This document shows positions 11,630 through 59,190 of a stretch of 64,000 bases of DNA, in pieces. The stretch covers positions 34,224,001 through 34,288,000 of the forward strand of contig NC_135893.1 in the NCBI RefSeq assembly GCF_964194155.1, given 5' to 3'. Source of the DNA: Cetorhinus maximus. Lineage: Eukaryota. A model generated the notes under the pieces. The model had not been told where the DNA came from, made no database searches, and saw nothing but the letters and a program-made list of their open reading frames with translations. Made by a program: the position numbers and the translations under genes. Every line of letters begins with the position of its first letter. Position 1 is the stretch's first letter.

Positions 11630-12215
11630 AATAAAAATGAGATAGGAGTTGGGGTAGGCTGCATGGCCCTGTCAAGCCTGACCTGCCATTCAATAGAATT
11701 ATAGGTGATCATTTACTTCAGCTCCACTTCCTCACACTATCCCCATATCCCTTAATTTCCTCAAAAATCTATCAATCTCACTCTTGAACATACTCATCAA
11801 CTGAGCATCCACAGTTCTCTGGAGTAGAGAATTCCAAAGAGTCACAACCCACGAATTGAAGAAATGTCTCCTCATCTCAGTCCTAAATGGCTGACCCCTT
11901 ATGCTAAAATTATGGCCTCTAGTTCTGGACTTTTCCAACCAGGGGAAAGAGCCTCTCAGCATTTTACCCTGTCAAGGCCTCGAAGAATTTTATACATTTC
12001 AATGAAATTACCGTTCATTTTGATAAATTACAAAGCACATAGGCCCATTCAACTCAACAATTCCTCATAGGACAATACTTTCCAATCCCTGGAATCAATC
12101 TAGTGAACATTCGTTGCCCTCTCTTCAGCCAGTATATCCTTTCTTAGGTAAGGAGACCAAAATGATGCATCTGGTGTCACCAAAGCCCTGTGCAGTGGCA
12201 GCGAGACATTCTTAT
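11630..12215 (-). mobile_element. CR1 LINE 3' fragment
   Basis: ORF2 C-terminus SRTRGHN..IRGQPFRTEMRRHFF..VV.LWNSL, followed by the CR1 3' UTR. Confidence 0.9.
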
Positions 12216-14827: not shown

Positions 14828-15456
14828 TAGGAATTTAGGAGCAAGAGTAGACCATTCAGCCCCTCGAGCCTGCTCCGCTATTCATTTAGATCATGGCTGA
14901 TTATCTACCTCAACACCACTTTCCCATGCTATCCCATATCCCTTAATGTCATTAGTATCCAGAAATCTATCGCTATCTATCTTGAACATGCTCAATGACT
15001 GAGCTTCCACAGCCCTCTGAGGTAGAGGATTCCAAAGACTCACCACCCTCTGAGTGAAGAAATTCCTCCCCATCTCAGTCTTAAATGGCCTGCCCCTTAT
15101 TGTGAGACTGCGCTCTCTGGTTCTATACTCACCAACCAGGGAAAACATCCTATCCACATCTACCCTGTCACGTCCTATAAGAATTTTGTAAGTTTCAATG
15201 AGATCACCTCTCATTCTTCGAAACTCTAGAGAATACAGGCCCAGTTCCCCCAATCTCTCCTCATAAATGGTGTTGAGGTAGATAATCAGCCATGATCTAA
15301 ATGAATAACTGAGCAGGCTGAAGGGGCCGAATGGTCTACTCTTGTTCCTATGTTCCTATCAATAGGATTACAGTACTTCCAGCCCAGAAATTAGTTTGGT
15401 GAGCATCTGTTGCACTCCCTCTATGGCAAGTATATCCTCCTTAGATAAGGAGACCA
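14828..15456 (-). mobile_element. CR1 LINE 3' fragment with an internal inverted duplication
   Basis: ORF 14891-15253: LGLYSLEFRRMRGDLIETYKIL...WNPLPQRAVEA. Confidence 0.92.
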
Positions 15457-18900: not shown

Positions 18901-19667
18901 AGAGCAGGAGGTGGAGCAGGAAGAGTGTGCCTTGAGAGTCTCCTGCCCCCTGCAGGTCCAGGGCACCTCTCCTCCTTTCCATTTCCTCCACGTAGGCCTC
19001 CCGGTGCAGTGCCGGAAAACCTTGCAGCTCATTGTATCCCAGGCCTCTCCTCACCCTTTCACAGAAGATTCACTTCCCGCATAACTTCCTGCCCCAGCGA
19101 CGGTCCACCTCTCCTTTACGAGGTGCAGGCCAGCTTTAGGTAGTGGTGGAAAATTACAGTTTTGGGCCTCTGGCTAATGCATATGCAGCCAATGAAGCGT
19201 GCTGTTAGTGCTGGATGCAGCAATCATGATAACGTGCAGGCGGCACCAGGTTGGTGTGCTGCCTGCATTCTAATTGACAGGCCCCAGTTTATCATGCATC
19301 ACTATCCCTGCCCTGGTTTTCGGGTGTTATCTAACTTAGCCCTCAGGCTTTTTTTTGCTGAAGTGCTTCGTGACACAGAAGTGAAGTTTAATATATAAGG
19401 GAAGAGAGAACAACTTCACACTGATGCTAAGACCATTGAAATGCTTTCTATCTGTAATGGGCATCAACACTTGCTAATAGCCGAGTGTGTAGAGACATGC
19501 CTGAGGCTTTTGCCTTAGGCATCAATGTCTGCAATGACACTATGAGCAGAATTTTACCCTTGGCATGCGGGCTTGGTGGGGGCAAAGGAGGTAGCTGGCG
19601 GTGAGCCGACTGCCACCGCAACTTTACGCGGACGGGCTAATTTAGGCAGGGATGGGGGCGGGGCTTA

Positions 19668-21642
19668 ATGTCCGCTGGGTCCAATGGCGGCCCGGCAGCC
19701 GATTCAAATAAGGCCTCAGCAGCCCCTGGAAGGCTCCCACTAAAGGATGTGAAAGTCATGTGCACGGATGCCCCAGCGGGTGGACACGGCCGGCGGGAGG
19801 GCAGGTCGGCAGGGCAGTTGGCCCCACGTTTCTCCGATGAGTGCCTCCCTGCCCTCCTGGAGGGGGTGGCAGTGCAGAGAGAAACCCTTGTCCCCGGGGA
19901 TGGGAGGAGGAGGCCCCCTCCCCACCTCACCAAAAAGGCCTGGGAGGAGGTGGTATCCAGGGTCAGCAGCCACGACGTGCTGAGGCGCACATGGGTGCAG
20001 TGCCAGAAGCGCTTCAGCTATCTCCTGCGACCGGGAAGGGTGAGAACCGTGTTGGCATGGGTCACTTAGCAGAACAAGTAAGAGCTGTCCATCCCCCTGT
20101 GGGCCTCAGAGGTGTTAGCGTGTGAGTGGCAAATGTCAATGAGGCAGGAGCTGGCCAAGGGGGTGAGCCCTGGCTGCTCGGACTGAGTGTCTTGCGGCTC
20201 CAGGGTCACGAATCGGCTGAGCCCTGCGAGGTTTTCCTCAGGCGGGGTTGGCCAGGCTGCAATGGCGCTGCAGGTACAGGGTGGACTAATCAATGCTCCT
20301 CTGACCTTTCAGGAGAAAACATCCCATAACAATGCAGAGAGGTCCCGGACTGGCGGGGACCCCCACACCTACTAATCCTCACTCATTATGAATCCTGAAA
20401 CTGGAGAGGCGCCATGCACTTCAGTCAAGCAGCCACGGTGAGGTTGGGGAGCCAGAGGGAGGTAAGAGTGCAGTGCACTGAGGTCAGAATGTCAGGAATT
20501 GCAACCATTCCACTGTTGTCTGTATATTGATGTGAGCCTCGAACCTGGAATCCCCATTGATAATGGAAAGACCAAGTCACCATGATGCAGATCTCTGTCT
20601 CAGGAGGCTGCCAGGCATGCACACTGACAGTCTAATAACTTAAACTAATGACATTTCCTTCTCCATTTTAGGCTCACCAGCAGCCCCTCGTTGTGAGGAG
20701 CCTGAAGGCCCACCCCTGACCCCTGAGGACCACACTGATCAGAACTCACCAGCGTCACACCCGCTCTCTCAAGCAGGCACCAGAGCAGATACCAGTGCCT
20801 TGCTGGGCATTAGATTGGCATCTAGTATCTCTGTGCAAATTGGGGACGGCACTTCACACTCACTTGAGGTGCAGGCGGAGGTAGAGAGTGCCCAGGGCGC
20901 TGGCGGTCCAAGGACTGCTGGGGACCAGGAACATGCTCAGTTGGTGGCTGATGATGAGCCTCTGGAGTCGTCCCTGAGGCAGCAGATGCTGGAAGTCCAG
21001 CAGGGTGTGCGGGAGGATCTGGCGGAGATACATGAGGGAATGTGTGCCATGGTGTCCATTGCAGAGGAGTCCCTGTGGAGCATAAGCACTGCGTTGACCC
21101 TCATGGCCAAGCGCACTGCCTTCTCCATGGAGAGAGTGGCGACTCTCATGGAGAGGCTCCTCCAGGGACTCAATCAGGGGTTCCTGGGGATGCGCTCGGA
21201 CCTGCAAGCCCTCACACCAGCAATGATCTCAGCTGGTCAGTGTCAGTGTGGGAGATGGATTGGGCACCCGGTATACCAGATAGGTGCCTGTCCATCAATG
21301 GTGAGCAGGGAGGCCCAGAGCGACCTGATGCTGGCACAAGAGGTGCCTGTCATCTCTGCGGGCTCCTCTCAGGGCGCTCCGGCTGGGGGAAGCAGCTCCT
21401 CAGCCCCCCTGCCAGTGACCGTGGCATCTGATGAGGCTGCGGCGACTGGGGAGATGCCAGCCGTGCCACTGGCCGCTCTCTCCCAGGTGGGGCCAGCACA
21501 GGCTCCATGGGCCAGAGGACGACCGCCAAGGTCATCAAGGCCAACAGGACAGCAGAATGAGCAGAACGTCTCCAATGCCGGTGCCAGTGAGGGGGGAGCA
21601 CCTAGACGTAGCACCCACAAGCCAAAACTTAAAGCACCTTAA
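19668..21642 (+). pseudogene. Harbinger Myb/SANT-like DNA-binding protein gene, 3 exons (..20039, 20313-20461, 20672-21642)
   Basis: Exon 1 has APRFSDECL..LLEGV...KKAWEEVVSRVSS...RTWVQCQKRF. Canonical GT/AG sites at 20040/20312 and 20462/20671. Exon 2 has EK..HN.AER.RTGG with a frameshift. Exon 3 is in frame with ORF 20800-21642. Start codon uncertain. Confidence 0.85.
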
Positions 21643-22276
21643 GCACAACACGGGTTTACCACAGGTGATATTTGTTTGCCCCTTTTCTCTGTTTTTTTTT
21701 AATGGTGTGATGTGAAACACCGGTGAATGTTATTTTCTGCTATGTTTGTCACTCAGAAGTAAATGAGATGTTATTTTTTTGTAACTGGCCTCTGGATGCT
21801 TCATTTGTTCTGTAGGTGCAGGCTAAGCCATGACATTCTGATGGATGTGTGACTCCTTAAACTTTATTCATAGTGTATGTTGTTGACCAAGGAACTGGTC
21901 CTGTCAGGTATCGAGTATGGAGCCTGCAGCCCTGGAATGTGGCGGTGGTTCTTATTTGGTAGTCTAGCTGAAGGAGCGTTGGATCAAAGCATCCCGGGTG
22001 TCCCTGCCTCCCTGGAGGTTGCCCAGGTCAGCGTCTATGCCCTCAGCATCTCCTGAGCATGCTCGACCTTGGACTCACTACTGGACTCATCGTCTGTTGC
22101 CTGTGCAGCAGCGTCAAGATTTTCTTCTCCACTGGGTCCCCCCTTTCCAATGCCAGATTGTGGAGAGCGCAGCATTCAACCGCTTTCTGTGACACTCACC
22201 CGGGGGGTATTGGAGTGCGCCCCCTAAATGGTCCGGGCATCGGAAGTGCATCTTGAGAAGACCTATGGTTCTCTCT

Positions 22277-25200
22277 TTTTTTTTATTATTCATTCAGCAT
22301 TTATTGCCCATCCCTAGTTGCCCTTGAGAAGGTGGTGGTGAGCTGCCTTCTTGAACCGCTGCAGTCCACGTGGTGTAGGTACACCCACAATGCTGTTAGG
22401 AAGGGAGTTCCAGGATTTTGACCCAGCGACAGTGAAGGAACGGTGATAAATTTCCAAGTCAGTGCGTGGCTTGGAGGGGAACCTCCAGGTGGTGGAGTTC
22501 CCATGCATCTGCTGCTCTTGTCCTTCTAGGTGGTAGTGGTTGTGGGTTTGGAAGGTGCTGTCTAAGAAGTCTTGGTGAATTCCTGCAGTGCATCTTGAAG
22601 ACTGCTGCTACTGTGCGTCAGTGATGGAGGGAGTGAATGTTTGTGGATGTGATGCCAGTCAAGCAAATTGCTTTGTCCTGGACGGTGTCAAGGTTCTTGA
22701 GTGTTGCGGGAGCTGCACTCACCCAGGCAAGTGGGCAGTATTCCATCACACTCCTGACTTGTGCCTTGTAGATGGGGGACAGACTCTGGGAAGTCAGGAG
22801 ATGAGTTACTCATCGCATGGTTCCTAGCCTCTGACCTGCTCTTGTAGCCACAGTATTTATGTGAGGAGATGGTTAGATCTCCAAGGGGAGATGGTTAGAT
22901 TCCCTGTTGTTGGAGATGGTCACAGCCTGGCATTGTGTGGCACATATGTTACTTGCCATTATCAGCTCAAACCTGAATGTTGTCTTTATATGGCCAGTCC
23001 AGCTCCATTTCTGGTCAATGGTAACCCCCAGGATATTGATAGTGAGGGATTCAGTGATGGTCATGCCATTGATCATCAAGGGGCCATGGTTGGATTCTCT
23101 CTTGGCTGGAGATGGTCATTGCCTGACACTTGTGTGGCATGAATGTTACTTGCCTCTTGTCAGCCCAAGCCTGGATATTGTCCAGGTCTTGCTGCATTTG
23201 GACATGGACTGCTTCAGTATCTGAGGAATCGTGAATGGTGCTGAACATTGCCAGCCAGGCAGAGCAAGCCAGAGGCTTCACAGTGATTGTTGGATTCCCC
23301 GTGTCCAGGCTGCCATCGACTACACACATGTGGCCATCAAGGCGCCAGCGGGTCAGCCAGGTGCCTTCGTCAACAGGAAGGGCTTCCACTCCATGAACAT
23401 GCAGATAGTGTGTGATCACAGGGTGCAGATTCTGCCAGTCTGTGCAAGGTACCCAGGCAGCTCCCCTGACACTTACATCCTGAGACACTCCCAGGTGTCG
23501 AAGCTCTTCAGTGCTCCAGCCCGACTGGATGGATGGCTGCTGGGTAACAAGGATTATCTGCTCATGACGCCTCTCTGCCACCCAAGAACAGAGGCTGAGC
23601 AGCGGTACAACAGGAGCCACCCCTCCACAGGGGCTGTGGTAGAGGGGAGGTGATGGTGTAGTGGTATTGTCACTGGGCTAGTAATCTAGAGACCCAGGGT
23701 AATGCTCTAGGAACCTGGGTTCGAATCCTGCCAGGGCAGATGGTGGAATTTGAATTCAATAGTTGCAAAAATCCATCTGGTTTACTAATGTCCTTCACGG
23801 GGGAAAAAAAAAATCCACCTGGCACTTCTAGCTGAAGATTGTTGCGAATGCTTCAGCCTTATCTTTTGCACTGCTGTGCTGGGCATATTTGTGGAGCCTC
23901 CTCCTCCAGTGAGTTGTTTACTTGCCCACCACTATTCACAACTGGATGTGGCAGGACTGCAGAGCTTTGACCTGATCCATTGGTTGTGGGATTGCTTAAC
24001 TCTGTCTATCACTTGCTGCTTATGTTGTTTGTCACACAAGTAGTCCTGTGTTATAGCTTCACCAGGTTGACAGCTCATTTTTAGGTATGCCTGGTGCTGC
24101 TCCTGGAATGCCCTCCTGCACACTTCATTGAACCAGGGTTGATCTCCTGGCTTGATGGTTATGGTAGAGTGGGGGATATGCCGGGACATGAGGTTACAGG
24201 TTGTGTTCAAGTGCAATCCTGCTGCTGCTGATGGCCCACAATGCCTCATGGTTGCCCAGTCTTGAGTTGCTAGATCTGTTCAAAATCTATCCGATTTCGC
24301 ACAGTGGTAGTGCCACACAACACGATGGAGGGTATCCTCAATGTGAAGGCAGGACTTCGTCTCCAAAAGGACTGTGACCGATACCATCATGGACAGATGC
24401 ATCTTCGGCAGGCAGGTTGGTGAGGATGAGGTCAAGTATGTTTTTCCCTCTTGTTGGTTCCCTCACCACCTTCCGTAGACCCAGTCTAGCAGCTATATCA
24501 TTTAGGACTCAGCCAGCTTGGTGTTACCGAGCCATTCTTGGTGATGGACATTGAAGTCCCCCACCCAGAGTACATTCTGCACCTTTGCCATCCTGAGTGC
24601 TTCCTTCAAGCGATGTTCAACATGGTGGAGCATTGATTCATCAGCTGAGAGAGGGCAGTACATGGTAATCAGCAGGAGGTTTCCTTGCCCATGTTTGACC
24701 TGATGCCATGAGACTTCATGGGGTCCGGAGTCGATGTTGAGGACTCCCAGGGCAACTCCCTCCCGACTGTATACCACTGTGCTGCCACCTCTGCTGGGTC
24801 TGTCCTGCCAGTGGGACTGGACGTACCCATGGACGGCGATGGTGGTGTCTGGGACATTATCTGTAAGGTATGATTCCGTGAGGATGACTATATCAGGCTG
24901 TTGCTTGGCTGGTCTGTGAGGCAGCTCTCCCAATTTTGGCACTAGCCCCAGATGTTAATAAGGAGGACTTTGCAGGTTGACAGGGCTGAGATTGCCGTTG
25001 TCGTTTCCGGTGCCTAGGTCAATGCCAGGTGGTCCGACCAGTTTCATTCCTTTTTTGTGACTTTGGTTGCAGTTTGACACAGCTGAGTGGCTTGCTAGGC
25101 CATTTCAGAGGACATTTCAGAGTCAAGGGTTTAAGGGTCTGGAGTCACATGTAGGCCAGGCCAGGTAAAGATGACAGATTTCCTTCCCTACAGGGAATTA

Positions 25201-25390
25201 GTGAACCAGATGGGTTTTTACAACTATCGACAATGGTTTCATGGTCATCATTAGACTTTTAATTCCAGATTTTTATTGAATTCAAATTCCCCCATCTGCC
25301 CTGGCAGGATTCAAACCCAGGTCCCCAGAGCATTACCCTGGGTCTCTGGATTACTAGTCCAGTGACAATACCACTACACCATCACCTCCC
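22277..25390 (-). mobile_element. CR1/L2-group LINE with a tRNA-like 5' head, APE endonuclease and RT; centre rearranged
   Basis: Endonuclease ORF 24502-24942 (PDIVILTES, GDFNVH), RT C-terminus at 22600-23250, A-rich tail at 22277-22295. TSD AGAG (CTCT at 22273-22276 and 25391-25394). Confidence 0.9.
23250..23805 (+). repeat. Inverted duplicate of about 25180-25786 (transposase core plus LINE 5' head)
   Basis: ORFs 23231-23653(+) and 25382-25924(-) are near identical and both run into the same LINE head at VVEGR*. Confidence 0.9.
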
Positions 25391-27194
25391 CTCTACCACA
25401 GCCCCTGTGGAGGGGTGGCTCCTGTTGTACTGCTGCTCAGCCTCTGTTCTTGGGTGGCAGAGAGGCATCATGAGCAGATAGTCCTTGTCATCCAGCAGCC
25501 ATCCATCCAGCTGGGCTGGAACACTGAAGAGCCTCGGCATCTGGGAGTGTCTGAGGATGTAAGCGTCATGGGAGCTGCCTGGGTATCTTGCACAGACTTG
25601 CAGAATCAGCATCCTGTGGTCACACACTATCTGCACGTTCATGGAGTGGAAGCCCTTCCTGTTGACGAAGGCACTGGGCTCACCCGCTGGCGCCTTGATG
25701 GCCACATGTGTACAGTCTATTGTAACCTGGACGCGGGGGAATCCAGCAATCACTGCGAAGCCTCTGGCTCGCTCAGCCTGGCTGGCCTCGTCCATACAGT
25801 AACGAATGAAAGTCAATACACGCCTGAACAGAGCTTCTGTCACCAGTTTGACGCAACTGTGGACAGCTGATTGGGAGACTCCACACAGATCCCCCCACTG
25901 AGCTCTGGAAAGAGCCGGAGGCATAGAGGTTGAGGGCCACTGTGATCTTCAGAGCCACTGGCATGGGGTGTAGAGCCACACAATCAGAGCTGATCTCAGG
26001 GCCGATCATCTGGCAAATGGAGGTGACTGTCTCCCTTGGGAGACGGAGCCTCCTTCAGCATTGCACTTCAGACATATTGAGGTAGCTGCTTCGCCGCCTG
26101 CAAACCCTGGCAGCAGGATAGTGGCGTCTTCTGCGGCCCCTTCCACCTTGGCCTTCCTGCTGGCCCTGTGCCCCTTGTGACTGCACCTCTCCCCCCACAG
26201 GTCACGCCCCTGGAGGCTGAATAGCGACACCTGGCCTCCTCCCCCTTCTGGCCCTCTCTTCCTCCTCAGAGGAGGTGCCTCCAGCAGAGAGCACAATCCC
26301 CATTACCAATCTTCTCCTTTTAAGCATAAAATATTGCACTCCTTATGGTGAACAAAAAAATTATAACAAAATAAGCCTAACCCAGTTACACTTGGCACAT
26401 ATCAAGTGCTCACAACATAAGATTCCTCTAAAGCCCATTTATTGAATCTGTTGTTTAATTCTTTTGATCTAATCCCTATTTTTATAGAATGGAAACCTGA
26501 CCAAACCTTACCATTACCAGAGTAAGAGAAGGCTGTCTGATACCTGGAAAGCCCCAGATGGTGTGAATCCTCCGGGAGCCTGGAAAACAACACTGAGTCC
26601 TGAACTGAAGCTTTTAAATGGCCTGAATGCAGCACTGAAGCGAAATGAAGCTCTCCTTGTTCACAGGAGCAAGCAGCAGCAAGTGATATCCAAAACTACT
26701 CACTATTCGCTTTGCAAAGCCCACTGACCCCTCTTATCCTGCCCGTGGATGAGGTTTTACAAATTGTGGCCTGCCCGCCTGCCCGTTTTGCCCGTGCGAT
26801 GCCCTGAAAATTGCACAGTCTACGTAAACTCAGAGTCAGTTGGTCTCTCAAGGGCCTTAACTGGCCACTTAATTAATGGCGGGCACGCCTCCTTCTTCGT
26901 CGCGCGCACACCCGGCGAAATATCGCGAGAGTGAGCGTTGACGTCGGGACGCTCGTCCGACATCAACATGCTTTATTTCATGCACGGGCGTGTCGGGCAC
27001 ATGCCCGCATGCCAAGGGTAAAATTCTGCCTGATATAATGGTTTAAATGATGTGTAACAATTATTTTACCTGTAATGAAGCATTGAATAAAAAAAACAAA
27101 TCTGTCAAACTTCCATGTGTTTGTGTAAGAAAACCTTGTTTTTGTGCTGCGCTGTATTCAAGTGTCATTCCCAAAGGCCATTGTGGAGGTTGTT

Positions 27195-27535
27195 TGTGGA
27201 GGTAGTTTCCCCTTGTGGGAGAGTCTAGGACCAGGGGTCATAATCTCAGAGTAAGGGGACGCCCATTTAAGACAGAGATGAGGAGGAATTTCTTCTCTCT
27301 GAGGGTAGTGAATCTGTGGAATTCTTTACCGCAGAGGGCTGTAGAGGCTGGGTCGTTAAGTATATTCAAGGCTGAGATAGGCAGATTTTTAATCAGTAAG
27401 GGATTCCAGGGGTATTGGGAAAAGGCAGGAAAGTGGAGTTGAGGATTATCAGATCAGCCATGATCTCATTAAATGGTAGAGCAGACGCGATGGGCCGAAT
27501 GGCCTACTTCTGCTGCTACGTCTTATGGTCTCATG
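27195..27535 (+). mobile_element. CR1 LINE 3' fragment
   Basis: GESRTRGHNLRVRGRPFKTEMRRNFFS.. followed by the 3' UTR and a tcttatgg tail. Confidence 0.92.
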
Positions 27536-27899
27536 GAGGCCACTGGGCCTGACGAGCCCTGGGTCATTGATTATCTTCTGGACTTGATCGCAAATTTCAG
27601 CTCCTATTGGTTGAGCTATGCCTCTAGGATTGGAAAATGCTTCCTCGGTGGATTTAGACCAATTAAGGACCAGTTTTTGGAGCTTTTACTATCTTGTCAT
27701 TGGAATGCTTCACAGCCTTTTCACGAAGTTTTTGGTGATCTTAATTTGCCCACGTTATTTTTTTTTTAAACAACAATAAAGAAACAGCCCTTCTTCACCA
27801 TCCATGTCCCCAAGGTCTGAAATATTGTACCAAGCAATACAAAGAAAACCACAGGCAGTCAGCAACAAAGAAGATTGCATGGGACGCTCTGAGTGAAGG

Positions 27900-35029: not shown

Positions 35030-35705
35030 TTGAATCCCAGTCAATGTTTTCACTCTAGTGCAGTACAAAGGGAGTGCTGCACTGTAGTAGGAGCTAACTT
35101 TTTGATGAGATGTTAAACTAAGGGCCCAGTCTCTCTTCTCAGCTACTCCTAAAAGATCTCATGTCATGATTTGAAGAAGGACACTAGAGTTCTCCCCAGT
35201 GTCCTGCTGGGAATCTATTCCTCTGCCATCACCTTGTATTTATTTATTTATTTATTTATTCTTTCACAGGACATGAGTGTGGCTGGCTAGGCCAACATTT
35301 TTATTGCCCATCCCTAATTGCCCTTGAGGTGATGATGAGCTGTCTTCCTGACCCGCTGCAGTCCATGTGGTGTAGGTACACCCACAGTGCTGTAAGGGAG
35401 GGAGTTCCAGGATTTTGACCCAGCAACAGTGAAGGAACGGTGATATATTTCCAAGTCAAAATGAAACTCGCAGGTGGTGGTGTTCCCGTGCATCTGCTGA
35501 CCTTGTCCTTCTAGTTGGTAGAGGTCGTGGTTTTGGAAGGTGCTGTCGGAGGAACCTTGGTGATTTGCTAAAACAGATTAAATGGTTGTTATCATGTTGC
35601 TATTAATGGGAGCTTGCTTTGCAGAAATTATCTGCCGCATTTCCTACATTACAATAGCGACTACATTTCAGAAAGTACTTCACTGGCTATAAGGAGTTTT
35701 GGAAC
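35030..35705 (+). mobile_element. DeuSINE split by a LINE 3' tail (35236-35567, minus strand)
   Basis: Deu core gtgcagtac..gggagtgctgcactgt...gatgagatgttaaac. The tail resumes at 35568. Confidence 0.75.
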
Positions 35706-36574: not shown

Positions 36575-37825
36575 TTTTATTGCCAGTCAGTTTTTGTGTA
36601 AGAATAAGGAAATCTTGCTGCAATTGTACAGGGTTTGATGAGGTCACACCAGGAATACTCTGTACAGTTTTGATCATCTTACATAAGGAAGGATATACTT
36701 GCTTTTTTTTCATTCATTTATAGGATGTGGGCATTGCTGGCTAGGCCGGCATTTATTGCCCATCCCTAATAGCCCTTGAGAAGGTGGTAGTGAGCTCCCT
36801 TCTTGAACCACTGCAGTCCCTGTGGTGTAGGTACACCCACAGTGCTATTACGAAGGGAATTCCAGGATTTTGACCCAACGACAGTGAAGGAACGGTGATA
36901 TATTTCCAAGTCAGGGTGGTCGTGGTCGAGGGTTTGGAAGGTGCTACCTCAGGAACTTGGTGAGTTCCGGCAGTGCACCTTGTAGATGGTGCACACTGCT
37001 GCCACTGTGCATTGGTGGTGGAGGGAGTGAATGTTTGTCGAAGGGGTGCCAATCAAATGGGCTGCTTTGCCTTGGATTGTGTCAAGCTTCTTGAGTGTTG
37101 TTGGAGCTGTGCTCATCCAGGCAAGTGGGGAGTATTCCATCACACTCCTGACTTGTGCCTTGTAGATGGTGGTTAGGCTTTGGGGAGTCAGGAGGTGAGT
37201 TACTCTCCGTACAATTCCTAGCCTCTGACCTGCTGTTGTATCCACAGTATTTATATGGCTTGTCCAGTTCAGTTCCTGGTCAATGACAACTGCCAGGATG
37301 TCGATAGTGGGGGATTCAGTAATGGTAATGCCATTAAATGTTAGAGAGAATGCCATAAAGGTTCATTGAACTGATTCCTGGGATGAGAGATTGTTTGATG
37401 AAGAGAGAGTGAGAAGAATGGGCCTACATTCTCTGAAGTTTAGAAGAGTGAGAGGTGGCCTTATTGGGATGTATAAAATTCTGAGTGTGTTTGACACGGT
37501 AGATGCTGAGAGGCCATTTCCCCTAGCTGGAGAGTCCAGAACTACAGGGCATAGGCTCAGGATAAAGGATCAACCAGTTGGGGCTGAGATGAGGAGAAAT
37601 TTCTTCACCCACAGGGCTGTGAATCTTTGGAATCCTCTAGCCCAGAGGGTTGTGGCTGGTCAGCCACTGAATACATTTTGGACCAAGAGTAATAGATCTT
37701 TGTGCATGAAGGGAATCAAGGAACATGCAGGGATAGGGTGGGAAAGTGGAGTTGATCAGTCCTGACCTTATTGAATAGTGGAGCAGGCCCAAGGAGCTGT
37801 GTTGACTTCTCCTGCTCCAAGTGTT
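36575..37825 (+). mobile_element. CR1 3' fragment split by an L2-group LINE fragment (about 36703-37345, minus strand)
   Basis: ORF 37391-37765 is a CR1 C-terminus. ORF 36949-37356 reads IYKAQVRSVMEYSPLAW. Confidence 0.85.
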
Positions 37826-37964
37826 GTAATCATCCTGCTTAAAAGAAGCCATTGCTAACTCCAGAATTACAGTACTGAATATTATAGAGAATATATCTAA
37901 CTGATGTAGTTCTGGGATTTACTTTCTCATTAGTGAAGGAAGAAAGACCAAATGCACCAAGAAC

Positions 37965-38340
37965 TCTGCTGGTTATGGTACTGGACTAGCAATCGAGAGA
38001 CAAGTGAACTCATCTCCCATCATGGCAAGTTTATAAATCTGATTTCAGTTTTACAAATCTGTAAAAATAAACTGGTAACAGTGACCATGAAACTGTTGGT
38101 TGTTATAAAAACACATTAATGATCACGAATGTCCTAACCCTGCAATCCTTACCCAGTCTGGCCTTTACGTCACCTCAATCCCACACCAATGTGGGTAACA
38201 TTTATCCACTTTCTCAACTGACTTGGTAAACCACTTGCTTGTATCAAACTGCTACAGTAAAGAAGGTGGCCCACTACCACCTTTTTAAGGCAATAAATGT
38301 CAAACTTACCAGAAATTCCCACTTTCCAAGAATTTCTTTT
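37965..38340 (+). mobile_element. Degraded tRNA-head SINE of the 55405 family
   Basis: ctggactagcaatc...gtgaccatgaaactg...ccttacccagtctggcc, with a LINE-type tail. Confidence 0.6.
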
Positions 38341-38864
38341 TAAAATTACAGCATTGTGATGATAATGGGGGAACCAGAAGGTTTGCAAGATTTCTAGTTT
38401 AAGTTATCGATGGAAACTTTGAACCAATTAACCTTGCTCATAACAGATCTAGCACACTCCAAATTCTACCAATGTCAAGTACTACTGAGCTATTTGAAAA
38501 TTATTAACATCATTGTTATTACCATCGAACATAAATATCCATCGGGACTTTCACTGAAGGAATTGAGGTTTGCCTCCAGCTGTTTAGCATCCATCTACAG
38601 AAGTGGGTTCCACATGGGCCTCACAAGGGCTTATGCGGGCTTCACGTGGACTTTACATAGGCTTTATATGAGCTTCCCCTGGGTGTTATATGGACTTCCA
38701 GAGGCATCAGTGCTCAAAAATCTAAACATTTCTGACTAAGGTTGAGGATAACATCTCTGCTGTACATAGATGGGCCAAATGCTCAGTCCATCAGCACAGG
38801 TTAACCTCTGGTCAAACCTTCTTAACAGGTCTACATAAAAACATTTGCCACTCATGTTTTAAGA

Positions 38865-39804: not shown

Positions 39805-40352
39805 ATACAAATTAGGAGCAGGCCATTCAGCCCCTCGAGCCTGCTCTGCCATTCAATAGTATCATGGCTGATCTGATTTTAACCTCACATTCCTGCCTAT
39901 CCCCAATAACCTTTCATCCCCTTGCTTATCAAGAATCTATCTACCTCTTCCTTAAAGATATTAAAGGATTCTGCCTCAACTGCCTTTTAAGGAAGAGAAA
40001 TCAAAATTCTCACAACCCTCTGAGAGAAAAAAAAATTCCTCATCTCTGACCTAAATGGGAGACCCCTTATTTTTAAACTGTGATCCCTAGTTATAGATTC
40101 TCCCACAAGAGGAAACATCCTGTCCACATCCACCCTGTCAAGATCTCTCTGGATCTTATATGTTTCAATCAAGTCTCCTCTTACTCTTCTAAACTCCAGT
40201 GGATACAAGCCTGGCCTGTCCAACCTTTCTTGATTAGACAACCTGCCCATTCCAGGTATTGATTTAGTAAACCTTCTCCGAACTGCTTCTAATGCATATA
40301 CATCTTTCCTTAAATAAGAAGACCAATATTGTACACACTACTCCAGATGTGG
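39805..40352 (-). mobile_element. CR1 LINE 3' fragment
   Basis: ORF 39987-40250: GLYPLEFRRVRGDLIETYKI. Confidence 0.9.
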
Positions 40353-41077: not shown

Positions 41078-41420
41078 GGTATGGTAACACAGAGATAATG
41101 TTGCTGGACTCGTAATCCAGAGATTGGGTTAATAATCCCAAGACATGAATTCGAGGCCCAGTGCAGCAGCTGAGGAATGCAAATTAAATGAATCTGGACC
41201 CAGAACCTATTTTTAGTAAGGGTGTATGTGTAGTGACTGGAATGTTGTTTAAAAAGCCATCTGATTCACCAATATCCTTATCTGGTCTGGCCTAAATGCG
41301 ATTGACTCTGAGCTGCCCTCTGATGTAGCCTAGCAAGCCATTCAATTGTATTCAACAAGGCAACTCACCACAACCTTCTCAAGGGCAATTAGGGATGGGC
41401 AACAAATGAATGAATAATAA
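41078..41420 (+). mobile_element. tRNA-head SINE sharing head and tail with the 22277-25390 LINE
   Basis: ctggactcgtaatccagaga head, cctagcaagcca, then caccaca.ccttctcaagggcaattagggatgggcaacaaatg tail. Confidence 0.75.
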
Positions 41421-41699
41421 ACGAAACATCTGTAACTATCAGCTGTTGGGTATTAAATGACAGAAACCACGTTTGTCTCCCATATTTGTTCCTAAATTAT
41501 TGTGCTTATTAAGCTGAGGAATCCCTTTCCATATCCATAGCCATGGGTTGGCATTTGCATTCAAAGGTTAGAAGGAGCACTGCCAGATGTCGATTAGTAT
41601 TCCCTGCATTCTGTTCCCCATCACGCCCCTTTGAACCCCACCCCACGGGAATCCAACCATTACAAAGATGCATGTTTTTTCAAAGAGCCAGTCTGGGGA

Positions 41700-42559: not shown

Positions 42560-43530
42560 ACCAGCATTTATTTCCCATCCCTAATTGCCTGTGAGAAGGT
42601 GATGGTGAGCCGCCTTCTTGAACCGCTGCAGTCCATGTGGTGTAGGTGCACCCACAGTGCTGTAAGGGAGGGAGTTCCAGGGTTTTGACCCAGCAACAGT
42701 GGAGGAACAGCAAAATAATTCCAAGTCAGGATAGTGTGTGGCTTGAAGGGGAACTTATGGTAGTAACATTCCCATGTGTCTGCTGCTCTTGTCCCTCTAG
42801 GTGGTAGGGGTTGCAGGTTTAGAAGATATGGTGCATGGAGTGTTGGTAGGTTTGCTTCCACTGTGCACCAGTGGTGCAGAGAGTGAATATTTAAGGTGGC
42901 GGATGGGGTGCCAATCAAGTGGGCTGCTTTGTCCTGGATGATGTCGAGCTTCTTGAGTGTTGTTGGAACTGAACTCATCCAGGCAAATGGAGAGTATTCC
43001 ATCACACTCCTGACTTGTAGATATAGTGGACAGACTTTGGGGAGTCAGGAGGTGAGTTACTCACCGCAGAATTCCCAGCCTCTGACCTGCTCTTGTAGCC
43101 ACAGTATTTATATGGCTGGTCCAGTTAGGTTCTGGTCAATAGTAACCTCTAGGATGTTGTAAGTCAGGAATTCAGGCGTTGTAATGCCATTGAATGTTAA
43201 CCCCTAGGATGTTGTTAGTCAGGGATTCAGTCATGGTAATGCCATTGAATGTCAAGTGGAGATGGTTAGAATCACTCTTCTTGGAAATGGTCATTGCGTA
43301 CCACTTGTGTGGCGTAAATGTTACTTGCCACTTATCAGCCCAAATCTGAATGTTGTCCAGGTTTTGCTACATGTAGACACAGACTGCTCCAGTATCTGAG
43401 GAGTTGCGAAAACACTGCAATCATCAGCAAACATTCCCACTTCTGACTTTATGATAGAAGGGTGGTCATTGATGAAGCAGCTGAAGGTGGCTGAGCCTAG
43501 GACACTACCCTGAGGAACTCCTGCAGCAAT
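42560..43530 (-). mobile_element. L2/CR1-group LINE RT to 3' end
   Basis: GVPQGSVLG..FSCFIND..GMFADD, MEYSPFAWMS, and a tail. Confidence 0.88.
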
Positions 43531-43536
43531 TGCAAT

Positions 43537-44928
43537 ATGTCTATTCAAGAAAGGAGGGAGTCAGAAAACAGGAAACTATCGGCCAGTTTGCCTAACATCT
43601 GTCATTGGGAAGATGCTAGAACCCATCAATAAGGAAGTAGTGGGGGGCATTGAGGAAATCGTAAGACAATCAAACAGTCAACAAAGTTCATGAAAGGGAA
43701 ATTGGGATTGACAAACTTATTAGAGTTGTTTGATGATGGAATATGTAAGGTGGATAAAGGAGAACTGGTAGATATAGTGTATTTTGATTTCCAAAAGTAT
43801 TCGATAAGGTGCCACATAAAAGATTATTACAGAAGATTAAAGCTTATAGTGTTGAGGGGTAATATATTAACATGGATAGCGGATTGGCTAACTGACAGAA
43901 AACAGAGAGTCGCGGTAAATGGGTCATCTTCAGTTGGCAAACAAAAACTAGCAGAGCGCCACAGGGTTCAGCGTTGGGTCCTCAACTATTTCAATCTATA
44001 TGAATGACTTGGATGAAGGCACTAAATGTGTTGTTGCTGAATTTTCTGATGCTACAAAGATAGGTAGGAAAGCAAGTTGTGAGGAGGCTACAAAGAGTCT
44101 GCAAAGGGATACAGATAGGTTAAGTGAGTGGGTAAAAACTTGGCAGATGGAGTTGTAATGTAGAAAAATGTATGGTTGTCCACTTTGATGGGTAGAATAA
44201 AAAAGCAGAATATTATTTAAATGGAGAGAGACTGCAGGGTGCCGTAGTACAGAGGAATCTGGATGTCCTCATACGTGAATCACAAAAAGTTAGCATGCAG
44301 GATCAGCAGGTATTTAGGAAGGCAAATGGGATGTTGGCTTCTATTTCAAAGAGGATGGAATATAAAAGAAGGGAAGTGTTGCTACACCTGGAGAGCACTG
44401 TGTACAGTTTTGTTCTCCTCATATAAATGCATTGCAGGCATTTCAGTGAATGTTAACTAGGTTGATTCCTGGGACAAAGGGGTTGTCTTATGTGGAGATG
44501 TTGAGCAGGTTGGGCCTATACTCATTGGATTTTAGAAGAATGAGAGGTGATGTATTGAAACATATAAGATTCTGAGTGAACTTGACAGGGTAGATGCTGA
44601 AAGGATCTTTTCCCTCATGGGGGAATCTAGAACTGGGGACAGAGTTTCAAAGTAAGTGGTCTCCCATTTAGAACAGGGATGAGGAGGAATTTCTTCTCTC
44701 AGAGAGTTGTTAGTCTTTGCAATTCTCTACCCCAGAGAGCAATAGGGTCTAGGTTATTCAATATTTTCAAGGCTGAGTTAGACAGAGTTTTGATGTACAA
44801 GGATTATGGGGAGCAGGCAGTACAGTGTATTTAAGGCCACAATTAGATCAGCCACTATCTTAGTCGATGGCAAAGCAGCCTCAAGGTGCCAAATAGCCTA
44901 CTCTTGCTCTTATTTCTTATGATTTATG
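43537..44928 (+). mobile_element. CR1 LINE RT to 3' end
   Basis: GNYRPVCLTSVIGKMLE, LTNLLELFD, VDIVYFDFQK, then the C-terminus and 3' UTR. Confidence 0.9.
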
Positions 44929-45889
44929 ATGTCCTGAAGCTGAGGCGAGTGGCTGGGGCAGAATGATGTTGGTTGAGGAATAAATATTTGCTAGGGCACC
45001 AGGGAGAACTCCCTTGCTCTTCCTTGAAACGGTACCATGGGATCTGTTAGGTCTAGCCAAGAGACCAGATGGGGTCTCAAGTTAATACCTCATCTGAAAA
45101 GCATCAACACCAAGAATGAAGCACTCCTTCGATACAACACTGAGAGTCAGCTTAGATTTTGTGTTCAAGTCTCAGCTGTGCTTAACCAACCCACAACTTT
45201 CAATCTCAAGATACAAAATGACTTCACTGAGCTGGGACTGAGCAAAGAATGTTTTAAAAGGTTAACATCAGCAAGACAGTAAAGTCTTCAAACTTGAAAC
45301 CAATATTATGAACAGCTGGAAAGTAGCCTGCCTTTGAATGTGACAGACTTCTGACCTTTATCCTGTATCCAATATCCGTATTATGTTAGTGTCAGTTTGA
45401 ATTTACCTTACATAAATTGATCAAGCATTGAAGATAAGAAGCCAGTCTGCATTTGTGCATTATATACAAATACATAGGTTCATTTATCAAGGAGTTAAGA
45501 AGTTGGTAGCAGTATTGCAAAGTTGGAGAACTTATATGCATACCTGACCTGTTTGTTTCCTCATAGTAGACTGAGACTGAGCCTGAATCACATGAGACAT
45601 TGCATAATTTCCCTCCAGTAACATATTCAGAAAATGCAACCACACCCACTTAAAGATGTACCACAACACGAACCACACTGTGACTGTTGGGAAATGGCCA
45701 TGACATCCCCATGTATAAGCAGCCTGCTGACATTACACCCCCACACTATCCAGCGATATGCAGGAGGCTAGCTCATGCTTGTGGTACTGTGCAGTGAGCA
45801 TGAATCAGGGCCGTTAGGAGAGGGGGAAGAACATGCCTAACATGTTGGCGAAACCACAACTTGGCCGTAGAGCAATGCTCTGCCGTGTA

Positions 45890-46112
45890 TTTGTTTTTCA
45901 TTCATGCACAGGATTTGGGTGTTGCTGGCAACACTAGCATTTGTTGCCAATTCCTCATTGGCCTCGTGTCTTTGTGAATCGCTGCAATCTGTGTGGGGAA
46001 GGTATGTCCACGGTGCTGTTATGGAGGGAGTTCCAAGATTTTAACCCAGCCACAATAAAGGAACGGTGATATATTTCCAAGTCAGGATGGTGTGTGACTT
46101 GGGGGGGAACTC
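45890..46112 (-). mobile_element. L2-group LINE 3' tail
   Basis: Same tail sequence as 22290-22500 and 35240-35460. Confidence 0.75.
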
Positions 46113-46517
46113 CAAGTATACCGTAAATTAGACAAGTCCAAGTATGTAGTGAAGCAGTGAAGGGGACTGTAGGGATAATCTGGTGTGAATCGGGGTTATC
46201 AGGATGAGATAAGAATTTGAATGCTGCATAAATTAATGAGGTTTTGTGTGTGGAATTTCCGTGGTGTAATAACTAATCTGAGACATCAAAAGCAAGAAAA
46301 ACAAATTTTAGCACCTAACATTATCACTAAATGAGCTTATACATCAACATGCAGAATGTGATTATTCACATTTGCCCAAGTTAATTAAACCTAGAAAAGA
46401 AACAACACATGAGAGGTGTTCCTGGAGACTTTCAAACTAATCTTAATGAAGCTAGTGCAACAGTCATGGTGACACACTTGCAGCCTCCAGACGAGTTTTT
46501 GGCATGCGAGTGTTAAG

Positions 46518-47446: not shown

Positions 47447-48239
47447 NNNNNNNNNNNNNNNNNNNNNNNNNNNNNNNNNNNNNNNNNNNNNNNNNNNNNN
47501 NNNNNNNNNNNNNNNNNNNNNNNNNNNNNNNNNNNNNNNNNNNNNNNNNNNNNNNNNNNNNNNNNNNNNNNNNNNNNNNNNNNNNNNNNNNNNNNNNNNN
47601 NNNNNNNNNNNNNNNNNNNNNNNNNNNNNNNNNNNNNNNNNNNNNNNNNNNNNNNNNNNNNNNNNNNNNNNNNNNNNNNNNNNNNNNNNNNNNNNNNNNN
47701 NNNNNNNNNNNNNNNNNNNNNNNNNNNNNNNNNNNNNNNNNNNNNNNNNNNNNNNNNNNNNNNNNNNNNNNNNNNNNNNNNNNNNNNNNNNNNNNNNNNN
47801 NNNNNNNNNNNNNNNNNNNNNNNNNNNNNNNNNNNNNNNNNNNNNNNNNNNNNNNNNNNNNNNNNNNNNNNNNNNNNNNNNNNNNNNNNNNNNNNNNNNN
47901 NNNNNNNNNNNNNNNNNNNNNNNNNNNNNNNNNNNNNNNNNNNNNNNNNNNNNNNNNNNNNNNNNNNNNNNNNNNNNNNNNNNNNNNNNNNNNNNNNNNN
48001 NNNNNNNNNNNNNNNNNNNNNNNNNNNNNNNNNNNNNNNNNNNNNNNNNNNNNNNNNNNNNNNNNNNNNNNNNNNNNNNNNNNNNNNNNNNNNNNNNNNN
48101 NNNNNNNNNNNNNNNNNNNNNNNNNNNNNNNNNNNNNNNNNNNNNNNNNNNNNNNNNNNNNNNNNNNNNNNNNNNNNNNNNNNNNNNNNNNNNNNNNNNN
48201 NNNNNNNNNNNNNNNNNNNNNNNNNNNNNNNNNNNNNNN
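47447..48239. other. Assembly gap (N run)
   Basis: All N. Confidence 1.
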
Positions 48240-50411: not shown

Positions 50412-51554
50412 ATATTTTCTAAAAGGCTTTATTTTAACTAGGGGTTGCTTCTGGACTCTTCAGATGTCTGGCCAAGACCTACGAGGCACAGTTTGAGCAA
50501 GAGGGTTGGATGATAGGCTTCAGTTTCCATGCCTGGCCATACATTTTGTACTGAGACTGTGTTCCAGGTTAGAATTCCTCTCAGCTGCGTCATGAAGCTG
50601 GACCTCTGTATTTTTTGAAATATGATTTTCAAAACCTTCAACTGACTGGAAATTCTGCAAATTGAAATGAGACAGAACAAACTACTTTAAATTGCAAGGC
50701 CACCTTGCAAGGTGAAGGTGAGAAAAGCAAACAAGACCCCCTAAGGGAGTATGATGAGAGTTATTTCCAGTAACTTACAGTCATCAAAACTCAACACTAT
50801 CTAAGGAAGATATGAAAAATGCCAAGTGCTGGATTTTCATCAGCTGTAATCTTTTTAAGACAATGGGGAACAGCTAACCACCCAGGATATACAACCTGCA
50901 CTCCACCCAAGTGGAAACAGACACTCAAACCGTTCCCTGTGAAATGTGAAAGACCCCCATCTCCTGTTGGCTTTTACTATTTTGAAATTCGTCATAAGTG
51001 TCTGAGATGAAATATCAGAAAATGTGATTATCTGTTCTACAACACAATGACAACAGCTGACATAGTAATCAAATTCCTCTGGAATGTACAACTAGCAGGG
51101 CTTTAAGAACAACTTTACCAAGCCAGAGGAAAAAGAAGTTGTCAGAGGAGAGATTTTTTGAAAAAGCAGAAGAAGCAAGCTGAAAAGTTCTCTCTTTTTC
51201 TCACTCTCCAGGAACAAGTGCAGTGCCCGATTCAAGAAATCAGCATACCAAAATCTACCAACAACCCAAGATGGTGTAAGAATTGCAACAACTTCTACAT
51301 CAGACCACATCCAAGGAACCAGCTAACTTAAAATGGCTGCAATGTTCAACAACCTATGCCTAAAGGACAAGCAAAGGACATATAACTGTATATTCTTTTA
51401 ACTTTTATTTGGATTCTATCTGTCCTTACTTCTGACACCTCTGTGTGTGTGAGTGTGTGTATGTGTGTGCTTGTGTGTGACATCACATCTTTTATTACTT
51501 TTCCTCGGGCTTAGTGGCTAATAAACCTGCTATTTCTTTGACTCAAGAAAACCT

Positions 51555-55404: not shown

Positions 55405-55776
55405 GGGAAGATGGTGGCATAATGGCAACGTGACTGGGCTAGTACTCCAGAGGCCCAGGCTAAAGCTCTGAGGACACAGGTTCAAATCCCACCACAGCAG
55501 CTAGTAGAATTTCTATTCAATTAATAAATCTGGAATTGAAAGCTGGTCTCAGTTGTGGTGACTGTGAAACTATCACTGATTATTGTAAAAACCCATCTGC
55601 CATCCTTACCTGGTCAGGCCTGCATGTGACTCCAGGCCCACAGCAATGTGGTTGACTCTTAACTGCCCTCTGAAATGATCCAGCAAGCCACTCAATTCAA
55701 GGGCAATTAAGGATAGGCAACAAATGCTGGCCTTCCTGCTAACACCCACATCCTATAAAAGAATAAAGATAAAAAA
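55405..55776 (+). mobile_element. tRNA-head SINE sharing 5' head and 3' tail with the LINE at 22277-25390
   Basis: A-box-like TGGCATAATGG, B-box GGTTCAAATCC, tail caagggcaattaaggataggcaacaaatgctgg. Confidence 0.85.
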
Positions 55777-55976: not shown

Positions 55977-56220
55977 GCATAGTATTCTCACAGTATTCAC
56001 ATAGTATTCCCCAGCATTCACATATTATTCCCGCAGTATTCACATAGCCTTCCCCAGTATTCCCAAAGTATTCCGGCAGTACTTTAGTAATATTCCTCAG
56101 TATTCCATAGTATTCCTATAGTATTCCCCAGTACTGCCAAAGTATTCCTGCAATATTCCCATAGTATTCCCCAGTATTCCCATAGTATTCCTGTAGTATT
56201 TTCATAGCATTCCCGCAGTG
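55977..56220. repeat. Degenerate 10-11 bp tandem repeat (agtattc.. units) inside a minus-strand DeuSINE (about 55780-56255)
   Basis: Repeated catagtattc/cagtattcc units directly after the Deu core ccgacagc. Confidence 0.8.
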
Positions 56221-58474: not shown

Positions 58475-59190
58475 TCATTGATCTCCCACAGATACGCCAA
58501 CACTAGCAGAGTCCACACTCCCAACACTGATTCACTGATCCACCTACACCAGCAGAGTCCACACTCCCAACACTGATTCACTAATCCACCTACACCAGCA
58601 GAGTCCACACTCCCAACACTGATTCACTGATCCACCTACACCAGCAGAGTCCACACTCCCAACACTGATTCACTGATCCACCTACACCAGCAGAGTCCAC
58701 ACTCCCAACACTGATTCACTGATCCACCTACACCAGCAGAGTCCACACTCCCAACACTGATTCACTGATCCACCTACACCAGCAGAGTCCACACAACCAA
58801 CACTGATTCACTGATCCACCTACACCAGCAGAGTCCAAACTCCCAACACTGATTCACTGATCCACCTACACCAGCAGAGTCCACACTCCCAACACTGATT
58901 CACTGATCCACCTATACCAGCAGAGTCCACACTCCCAACACTGATTCACTGATCCACCAACACCAGCAGAGTCCACACTCCCAACACTGACTCACTGATC
59001 CACCAATTCCAGCAGAGTCCACATTCCAAGCACTGATCTCCCACTGATCCACGAACACCAACAGAGTCCACATTCCCAGCACTGATCTCCCACTGATCCA
59101 CGAACACCAACAGAGTCTACATTCTCAGCACTGATCTCCCACTGATCCACCAACACCAGCAGAGTCCACATTCCCAGCATAAATACACTG
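58475..59190. repeat. 46-47 bp minisatellite
   Basis: Unit CCAACACTGATTCACTGATCCACCTACACCAGCAGAGTCCACACTC, about 15 copies, with variant units at both ends. Confidence 0.97.

What the first reader, a model, noticed from the sequence alone, without database searches (positions are those of the whole stretch)
22277..25390. LINE whose 5' end is a tRNA-derived SINE head, with a matching head-plus-tail SINE family
Seen: one insertion bounded by a single TSD (AGAG) starts with a tRNA-like head (A-box-like TGGTGTAGTGG; B-box GGTTTGAATCC, and GGTTCGAATCC in the duplicate at 23718). After about 430 bp it reaches the APE endonuclease with no ORF1, and it ends in an A-rich tail. The SINEs at 55405-55776, 41078-41420 and 37965-38340 consist of the same ~320 bp head joined to the last ~75 bp of this LINE. 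Inference: this is an autonomous single-ORF LINE that acquired a Pol III-type head, and its partner SINE is an internal deletion derivative. Most LINE/SINE pairs share only the 3' tail. I cannot tell whether this family is already catalogued.
Basis: partly seen in the sequence, partly recalled or inferred. Interest (0 to 1): 0.72.

Follow-up and report, generated by a model that had tools for sequence, protein, structure and literature searches.

The report
Shark Zenon LINE with tRNA head
This is a dead copy of an abundant shark and ray jumping gene (a Zenon-type LINE) whose family begins with the tRNA-like promoter normally seen on short non-coding SINEs, and nearby SINEs look like the same element with its coding middle cut out, which makes it a testable candidate for a protein-coding retrotransposon transcribed by RNA polymerase III.

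Summary
Observation confirmed; the chance-chimera rival is refuted. The element (25390-22277, minus strand) is one insertion in a Harbinger transposase, bounded by an AGAG duplication. It is an elasmobranch Zenon (CR1-group, ORF1-less, poly-A) LINE. Its 5' end matches, by eye, the published white shark consensus CarCar_Zenon-1, and 7 of 7 shark and ray Zenon consensi in that supplement start with the same A-box/B-box head; 0 of 3 hagfish and coelacanth ones do. Whale shark gene models and sequencing contigs also bridge head and endonuclease. So the family is catalogued and the lack of ORF1 is ordinary for Zenon. The tRNA head is not mentioned in that paper, and ten literature searches found no description of it. 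Corrections: this copy is dead and lacks its RT core, replaced by a post-insertion inverted duplicate; the three SINEs have three different, nested junctions and heads only 70-78% identical. They carry no SINE-only middle, which favours internal deletion. Pol III transcription is inferred, not shown (about 45%). Precedents: RTE-1_DAn (tRNA-like sequence in a LINE), Persaeus (Zenon deletion derivative without a tRNA head). New variant of a known kind.

The parts
25391..25394 (-). Target site duplication AGAG, 5' copy
25290..25390 (-). tRNA-derived head: A box 25381-25371, anticodon-like stem-loop 25362-25346, extra hairpin 25342-25324, B box 25317-25307
25070..25289 (-). Body shared by LINE and SINEs; not Deu or Meta domain by eye
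24976..25069 (-). LINE-only linker between shared head/body and endonuclease; present in published consensi and whale shark gene models
23813..24975 (-). APE endonuclease and linker of the single ORF, broken by stops and frameshifts
23250..23812 (+). Inverted duplicate of 25786-25180 (Harbinger flank 91%, head 95%, with a deletion); sits where the RT core is missing; arose after insertion
22314..23249 (-). End of RT domain and C-terminal part of the ORF, broken
22277..22313 (-). Shortened 3' UTR and A-rich tail
22273..22276 (-). Target site duplication AGAG, 3' copy
55405..55776 (+). SINE-like derivative 1; head 78% identical; crossover 25084-25081 to 22329-22326; intact A and B boxes
41078..41426 (+). 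SINE-like derivative 2; head 73% identical; crossover 25079-25077 to 22356-22354
37960..38345 (+). SINE-like derivative 3; head 70% identical, lacks the extra hairpin; crossover about 25070-25058 to 22364-22351
19546..27029 (-). Host PIF/Harbinger DNA transposon with 27-bp perfect inverted ends; its DDE_Tnp_4 ORF is split by the LINE

Best explanation
A decayed full-length-origin copy of the elasmobranch Zenon LINE (about 3.3 kb, one APE-RT ORF, poly-A tail). SHOWN: the family's own 5' end is a tRNA-derived head with A and B boxes, shared by sharks and a ray and absent from the first 400 nt of non-elasmobranch Zenons (95%). INFERRED: an ancestral Zenon captured a tRNA-type head before the shark-ray split. 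The head works as the internal promoter, most likely for Pol III (45%; no other single mechanism scores higher), so each full-length insertion carries its own promoter. The RNA would be uncapped and translated cap-independently. INFERRED: a jump of the reverse transcriptase, or a DNA deletion, from about 55-90 nt inside the 3' end to the end of the 320-nt head/body leaves promoter plus RT-recognition tail, a ready-made SINE mobilised in trans (75%). This copy inserted in a Harbinger and later lost its RT core to an inverted duplication.
For: Head in 7 of 7 elasmobranch consensi from 5 species; three body motifs occur in 6, 6 and 7 rows of the supplement, all elasmobranch Zenons (first 400 letters only, compared by eye). 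A box kept in 7 of 7, B box in 6 of 7 (one base short in the ray), while the spacer varies. 5' end about 9 nt before the A box, as in tRNA genes and SINEs (established). 3 of 27 close EN relatives listed carry head-encoded residues ahead of the endonuclease, all three whale shark gene models. Contigs align across 25066 in 86, 53, 51 and 21 cases in 4 runs of 3 organisms; one record spans 24738-25111. SINEs have 0-2 nt between LINE-5' and LINE-3' matches and 2-3 nt of ambiguity at the crossovers. Zenon deletion derivatives arose at least four times in moths (PMC6740152). No T4 run in head and linker; 3 of 3 T4 runs with an aligned second copy are private. Uncapped LINE RNA is translated in R2 and L1Tc (PMC6765202). 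Pol III transcripts retrotranspose without ORF1p in the L1 system (PMC2666806 abstract).
Against: No transcript 5' ends or polymerase data: only contigs were available. T4 depletion is weak: 6 runs in 6274 nt against 7.4-11.9 in shuffles, and A4 runs are also below shuffles; 3 of 6 runs had no second copy to compare, two of them in this element. Zenons without the head also lack ORF1, so the head does not explain ORF1 loss. Rfam and ARAGORN do not recognise the head; folding z-scores are -1.8 to +1.1. The junction bin has the lowest summed depth of 30 in all three DNA runs, and head-to-tail joints are not among the 15 of 8807 shown. The three SINE junctions are nested, so one founder with later deletions fits as well, and n = 3. 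A 3.3-kb coding Pol III transcript has no precedent that I found.
Confidence: 0.55

Rival explanations
1. The head is part of the family but the coding RNA is made by Pol II (read-through or an internal promoter). The tRNA-like fold is a processing or translation signal, playing the part that ribozymes play in R2, RTE and L1Tc; Pol III uses the boxes only in the short derivatives.
For: LINEs are Pol II transcripts as a rule. The anticodon-like stem pairs in 4 of 4 window heads and an extra hairpin folds in this head and in the 41078 SINE with different letters, which hints at RNA-level constraint. No clear in-frame ATG before the endonuclease in this copy.
Against: A and B boxes are kept across 5 species while the spacer changes in length; the element starts where Pol III would start; overall folding is not significant.
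Confidence: 0.3
2. SINE first: an ordinary tRNA SINE with a Zenon tail existed, and a Zenon took over its 5' part by template switching. The SINEs are the donors' relatives, not deletion products.
For: Heads must come from a tRNA or SINE. SINE heads are 70-78% identical to this LINE and resemble the dogfish-type head by eye; the most diverged SINE lacks the extra hairpin. Module exchange among SINEs is common.
Against: The shared region ends exactly where the SINE tail begins in 3 of 3 copies, a coincidence under capture but automatic under deletion; two SINEs keep LINE sequence beyond the junction of the third.
Confidence: 0.2
3. A chance SINE/LINE chimera unique to this locus; other full-length copies have a normal 5' UTR and ORF1.
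For: Only one head-endonuclease junction lies in the window; the TSD is only 4 bp; depth is lowest at the junction.
Against: Published consensi from 5 species carry head, linker and endonuclease start in one piece; whale shark models and contigs bridge it; all Zenons lack ORF1.
Confidence: 0.01

Closest known systems
Elasmobranch Zenon LINEs, e.g. CarCar_Zenon-1 (Stuart et al. 2026, PMC13343379, Supplementary Table 2)
   Same: Same family: first 400 nt collinear and nearly identical by eye; 3288 nt; no ORF1; poly-A; Zenon covers 6.8% of the white shark and whale shark genomes.
   Different: Nothing in sequence. The paper does not mention the tRNA head or the SINEs ('tRNA' 0 hits in text and held supplement; 'SINE' only in a reference title).
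Persaeus SIDE and lepidopteran Zenon (Wang et al. 2019, PMC6740152)
   Same: Short element made of the 5' and 3' ends of a Zenon; several origins; microhomology at breakpoints.
   Different: Persaeus has no tRNA homology or Pol III promoter and has a variable middle; here the deletion product is a tRNA SINE because the parent LINE already carries the head.
RTE-1_DAn and relatives (one sentence in Kojima 2018, PMC5786205)
   Same: A LINE holding a tRNA-like sequence that matches many SINE2 heads.
   Different: RTE clade; position and function not described in the parts read; sequence not available to compare.
Bipartite SINEs (Bov-tA, Mar-1, AfroSINE, CoeSINE4, SINE2_Gav; Kojima 2018)
   Same: tRNA head + LINE 5' part + LINE 3' part.
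   Different: There the tRNA head is added to a deleted RTE or Vingi and is absent from the LINE; here the autonomous LINE has it.
Shark SINEs HE1 (V-SINE, partner HER1) and SacSINE1 (Deu-SINE, L2 tail)
   Same: tRNA-derived SINEs of elasmobranchs with LINE tails.
   Different: Body lacks the Deu motifs shown (by eye; 9-10 nt overlap only); tail is Zenon. HE1 and SacSINE1 sequences could not be seen.

Membership tests
Zenon (CR1 group) | Sequence match to a Zenon consensus | tested here: met
   First 400 nt of CarCar_Zenon-1 collinear with 25390 to about 24995, by eye; five motif searches
Zenon (CR1 group) | No ORF1; single APE-RT ORF | tested here: met
   Endonuclease about 430 nt from the 5' end; collinear with single-ORF APE-RT proteins of 941-983 aa
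Zenon (CR1 group) | Poly-A tail | tested here: met
   A-rich end at 22290-22277 and in other 3' copies
Zenon (CR1 group) | RT domain falls in the Zenon clade | not tested
   RT core is missing from this copy and no reference RT set was usable; placement rests on PMC13343379
SINE2 (tRNA SINE), for the short copies | tRNA-derived head with A and B boxes | tested here: met
   55405 copy: boxes and tRNA profile E 0.008; the other two are decayed but homologous
SINE2 (tRNA SINE), for the short copies | 3' tail shared with a partner LINE | tested here: met
SINE2 (tRNA SINE), for the short copies | Many copies with the same junction and TSDs (amplified family) | tested here: inconclusive
   3 copies, 3 junctions, no convincing TSD; joints not shown
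SINE2 (tRNA SINE), for the short copies | Transcribed by Pol III | not testable with these tools
   Only contigs were offered
SIDE / bipartite non-autonomous LINE | Made only of the 5' and 3' ends of the partner LINE | tested here: met
   0-2 nt between the two matches in 3 of 3
Deu-SINE (SacSINE1 type) | Deu domain in the body | tested here: not met
   By eye against the Deu alignment; SacSINE1 itself not seen
MetaSINE | 66-bp Meta domain after the head | tested here: not met
   By eye
V-SINE (HE1) | V domain and HER1 tail | not tested
   Sequences not available
tRNA gene | Full cloverleaf | tested here: not met
   ARAGORN 0 genes, Rfam no tRNA hit at E 10

The most novel reading that the evidence does not exclude
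Elasmobranch Zenon is an autonomous, protein-coding LINE transcribed full length (3.3 kb) by RNA polymerase III from a captured tRNA promoter and translated without a cap. It became up to about 7% of shark genomes, and it spawns true SINEs in one step by internal deletion, erasing the usual line between LINE and SINE.
Probability: 0.42. Interest if true: 0.85.

Novelty: new variant of a known kind. Interest (0 to 1): 0.6.

Why it matters
LINEs are held to be Pol II transcripts and SINEs Pol III transcripts, and SINEs are thought to be assembled from separate head, body and tail. A very abundant vertebrate LINE that carries the Pol III head itself gives a direct test of whether a coding retrotransposon can run on Pol III, and a one-step route to SINE birth in which head, body and tail all come from the partner. 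A few near-intact copies are on record (1 of 1419 in whale shark, 3 of 612 in stingray), so promoter assays are feasible. Practically, repeat libraries will mislabel these SINEs as LINE fragments, and the heads may inflate tRNA counts in shark genomes (untested lead).

Tried and rejected
No whole genome is held, so no genome-wide count, TSD survey or tree. A 24-nt body motif found 0 hits in viral and 0 in metagenome contigs. The word-indexed protein search of longer proteins gave 1 hit, an exonised fragment. Rfam and ARAGORN gave no tRNA call. Alignment scores against 58 tRNAs fetched with a head-derived pattern are circular for this head and were replaced by the unbiased set; 115 of 120 pattern hits lie in tRNAs and 100 of 120 are Gln(TTG), a weak hint at the isotype only. 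Folding z-scores are not significant; four sequences are too few for covariation. The T-run test is inconclusive. Summed contig depths were not used as copy numbers. The RNA label of X15 is a guess, so it is not evidence of transcription. The inverted head at 23644 was rejected as a second insertion because it carries the same flank. The script stopped after 27 of 29 rows. Repbase and Dfam could not be searched. Supplements of PMC3531059 and PMC5499810 could not be read and could hold a name for this SINE; consensus cells of PMC13343379 are cut at 400 letters.

Full report
VERDICT. The tRNA-like head is the normal 5' end of the elasmobranch Zenon LINE family, not a local accident. The family is in a 2026 catalogue, but I found no description of its head or of its SINEs. 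Pol III transcription is an inference.

THE LOCUS. The element runs 25390-22277 on the minus strand. It splits a DDE_Tnp_4 ORF of a Harbinger with 27-bp perfect inverted ends at 19546 and 27029. AGAG stands at both ends, and the transposase reads AVVE before the head and RTIG after the tail. Four bases alone would be weak; the rejoined reading shows that head to tail came in as one block. The endonuclease (PF03372, PF14529) starts about 430 nt in. Against single-ORF APE-RT relatives of 941-983 aa, residues about 418-676 are missing. In their place lies an inverted copy of 25786-25180, 91% identical in the flank and 95% in the head. It contains the insertion junction, so it is younger than the insertion and is no independent copy. 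The ORF has many stops and frameshifts.

IS THE HEAD tRNA-DERIVED? [quoted passage not shown] The pattern hits 3 places in the window against 0.01 per shuffle (written after seeing the boxes). A profile of 48 phage tRNAs, not selected by the head's motif, gives 6 hits at E 20 or less; ranks 1, 2 and 4 are the duplicate (E 0.0013), the 55405 SINE (0.008) and this head (0.15). A 5-bp stem with a 7-nt loop sits at the anticodon position and pairs in 4 of 4 heads, followed by about 20 extra nt that fold as a hairpin. By eye, the dogfish consensus shows these extra bases as a tandem copy of the anticodon arm. Against: ARAGORN and Rfam make no tRNA call and folding is not significant. This is usual for SINE heads (own knowledge). 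The isotype is open.

IS THE JUNCTION FAMILY-WIDE? Yes, on three lines. (1) Supplementary Table 2 of Stuart et al. 2026 (PMC13343379) lists 10 Zenon consensi. All 7 from elasmobranchs (white shark, whale shark, catshark, dogfish x3, stingray; 2886-3314 nt) begin with this head and run on into the linker; the 2 hagfish and 1 coelacanth consensi show no such head in their first 400 letters. CarCar_Zenon-1 is nearly identical to the window by eye. Three body motifs occur in 6, 6 and 7 rows of the held text, all of them these Zenons. Cells are cut at 400 letters and no alignment was run on them. (2) Of 150 proteins returned, 29 are close relatives; of 27 rows printed, 3 (P0003, P0013, P0051) carry head-encoded residues ahead of the endonuclease, and P0061 may be a fourth. 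The three are whale shark gene models (10 of 150 looked up). Gene models can skip DNA, so they show order, not contiguity. (3) Four runs from three coded organisms (4 of 24 listed) laid 394,000-569,000 contigs per DNA run on the stretch. A one-base gap at 25066, in the junction, is seen in 86, 53, 51 and 21 contigs, and one listed record spans 24738-25111. Against: the junction bin has the lowest summed depth of 30 in the three DNA runs. SINEs and 5'-truncated copies skip it and this copy has indels there, but the tool warns that depth is no copy number.

WHAT IS ALREADY KNOWN. The same paper reports Zenon in elasmobranchs, coelacanth and hagfish, always without ORF1 and with a poly-A tail, and says that the elasmobranch ones had not been submitted to a repeat repository. 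Zenon covers 6.8% of the white shark and whale shark genomes, 4.4% of dogfish, 3.2% of catshark, 0.7% of stingray and 0.02% of the chimaera. Intact ORF2 is listed for 0 of 2313 white shark, 1 of 1419 whale shark and 3 of 612 stingray copies. 'tRNA' has 0 hits in the paper, its held supplement and its preprint, and 'promoter' 0 in the preprint. So single-ORF structure is ordinary for Zenon; the head is the unremarked part. Moth Zenon has a deletion derivative, Persaeus, which arose at least four times and has no tRNA homology or Pol III promoter. [quoted passage not shown] The gain of the head before the shark-ray split is inferred from this distribution.

THE SINES. Three copies align to the head at 78%, 73% and 70% and to the tail; a head profile finds no further good copy in the window. 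Between the LINE-5' match and the LINE-3' match lie 0-2 nt. Best crossovers: 25084-25081 to 22329-22326; 25079-25077 to 22356-22354; about 25070-25058 to 22364-22351. The lack of any SINE-only middle is automatic under deletion and a coincidence under head capture, so I favour deletion (75%). The junctions are nested, so three events and one founder with later losses fit equally. The SINE heads differ from this LINE and by eye resemble the dogfish-type head, so they descend from older lineages. No convincing TSD was found at their ends, and head-to-tail joints are not among the 15 of 8807 joints shown; their copy number is unmeasured. The body is not Deu or Meta by eye.

MECHANISM. Shown: boxes at the 5' end, kept across five species while the spacer changes. 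Inferred: TFIIIC binds them and Pol III starts about 9 nt upstream, making the whole RNA. This needs a coding strand free of terminators. Head and linker have no T4 run. In 6274 nt of window Zenon fragments there are 6 runs against 7.4-11.9 in shuffles; the 3 with an aligned second copy are private, 3 could not be compared. That is compatible but weak. It also needs cap-independent translation, for which R2 and L1Tc are precedents; the start codon is unresolved here. In the L1 system Pol III transcripts need no ORF1p (abstract), which would make a Pol III head cheap for an ORF1-less LINE, but headless Zenons lack ORF1 too. The main rival is Pol II transcription with the tRNA-like fold used for processing or translation (30%).

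NOVELTY. New variant of a known kind. Ten searches showed no paper on a tRNA-headed Zenon or a Pol III-driven autonomous LINE; the library lacks most subscription papers, and Repbase and Dfam could not be searched, so an entry may exist. Five earlier notes of this scan describe what appears to be the same family in other genomes; they are unchecked AI notes, none names Zenon, and they are not counted as support.

PAPERS SEEN. PMC13343379: abstract, passages, Methods, data statement, five supplement searches. Its preprint: term search. PMC5786205: parts 1-4 of 5, two supplement searches. PMC6740152: parts 1-3 of 5. PMC5499810: parts 1-2 of 6. Passages only: PMC3747384, PMC10886601, PMC7245038 (supplement search 84), 10.1101/443036, PMC11481361, 10.1101/2025.06.08.657570, PMC4824008, PMC3531059, PMC6765202. 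Abstract only: PMC2666806. Supplements of PMC3531059 and PMC5499810 were not readable and could bear on whether the SINE has a name.

SCORE. Interest 0.60: solid, family-wide, directly testable and apparently unremarked, but the family is catalogued, partial precedents exist and the striking claim is untested.

Noticed in passing
window 19546-27029: Complete PIF/Harbinger transposon with 27-bp perfect inverted ends, a DDE_Tnp_4 ORF on the minus strand and a second long ORF at 20644-21642 on the plus strand; Harbinger-part contigs were laid in all four runs.
   Followed up: partly
window about 12575-12260, minus strand: A second, unrelated tRNA-headed element (tRNA profile E 0.01) holding a motif like the RTE 5' UTR shown; probably an RTE-type bipartite SINE.
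   Followed up: partly
window 23250-23812: Inverted duplication of the insertion's own 5' junction into the place of the RT core, ending in a 9-10 nt A run; looks like a replication or repair template switch after insertion.
   Followed up: partly
window 22295 and 41408: This LINE and the 41078 SINE both lack the same part of the family's 3' tail, which other copies keep; shared subfamily or repeated deletion between short repeats.
   Followed up: no
window 25342-25324 and 41125-41143: The extra hairpin in the head folds in both the LINE and the 41078 SINE although the letters differ; by eye it is also present with other letters in the published consensi. Possible RNA-level constraint.
   Followed up: partly
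window 25103-25095: ATG-GCC-TAG, a two-codon ORF at the end of the shared body, is visible in most published consensi; a whale shark model reads through it (P0013). Role in translation start unknown.
   Followed up: no
window 51545-52990, 42562-43530, 36703-37362, 35247-35569, 45888-46117, 58-234: At least six further 5'-truncated Zenon fragments; the one at 51545 holds part of the RT missing from the focal copy.
   Followed up: partly
window 11672-12124, 14836-15267, 27187-27536, 37345-37818, 39814-40303, 44048-44928, 60314-61269: A second repeat family in at least seven fragments, likely canonical CR1 ORF2 pieces.
   Followed up: no
window 58500-59176 and 55978-56219: Tandem arrays: 46 bp x 14.5 at 94% match, and an 11-bp-based array. 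An assembly gap lies at 47447-48239.
   Followed up: no
paper 10.1101/2025.06.08.657570: Sharks are reported to have excess tRNA loci, including selenocysteine and intron-containing calls; young Zenon heads with their extra hairpin might account for some. Untested; ARAGORN does not call the decayed heads here.
   Followed up: no
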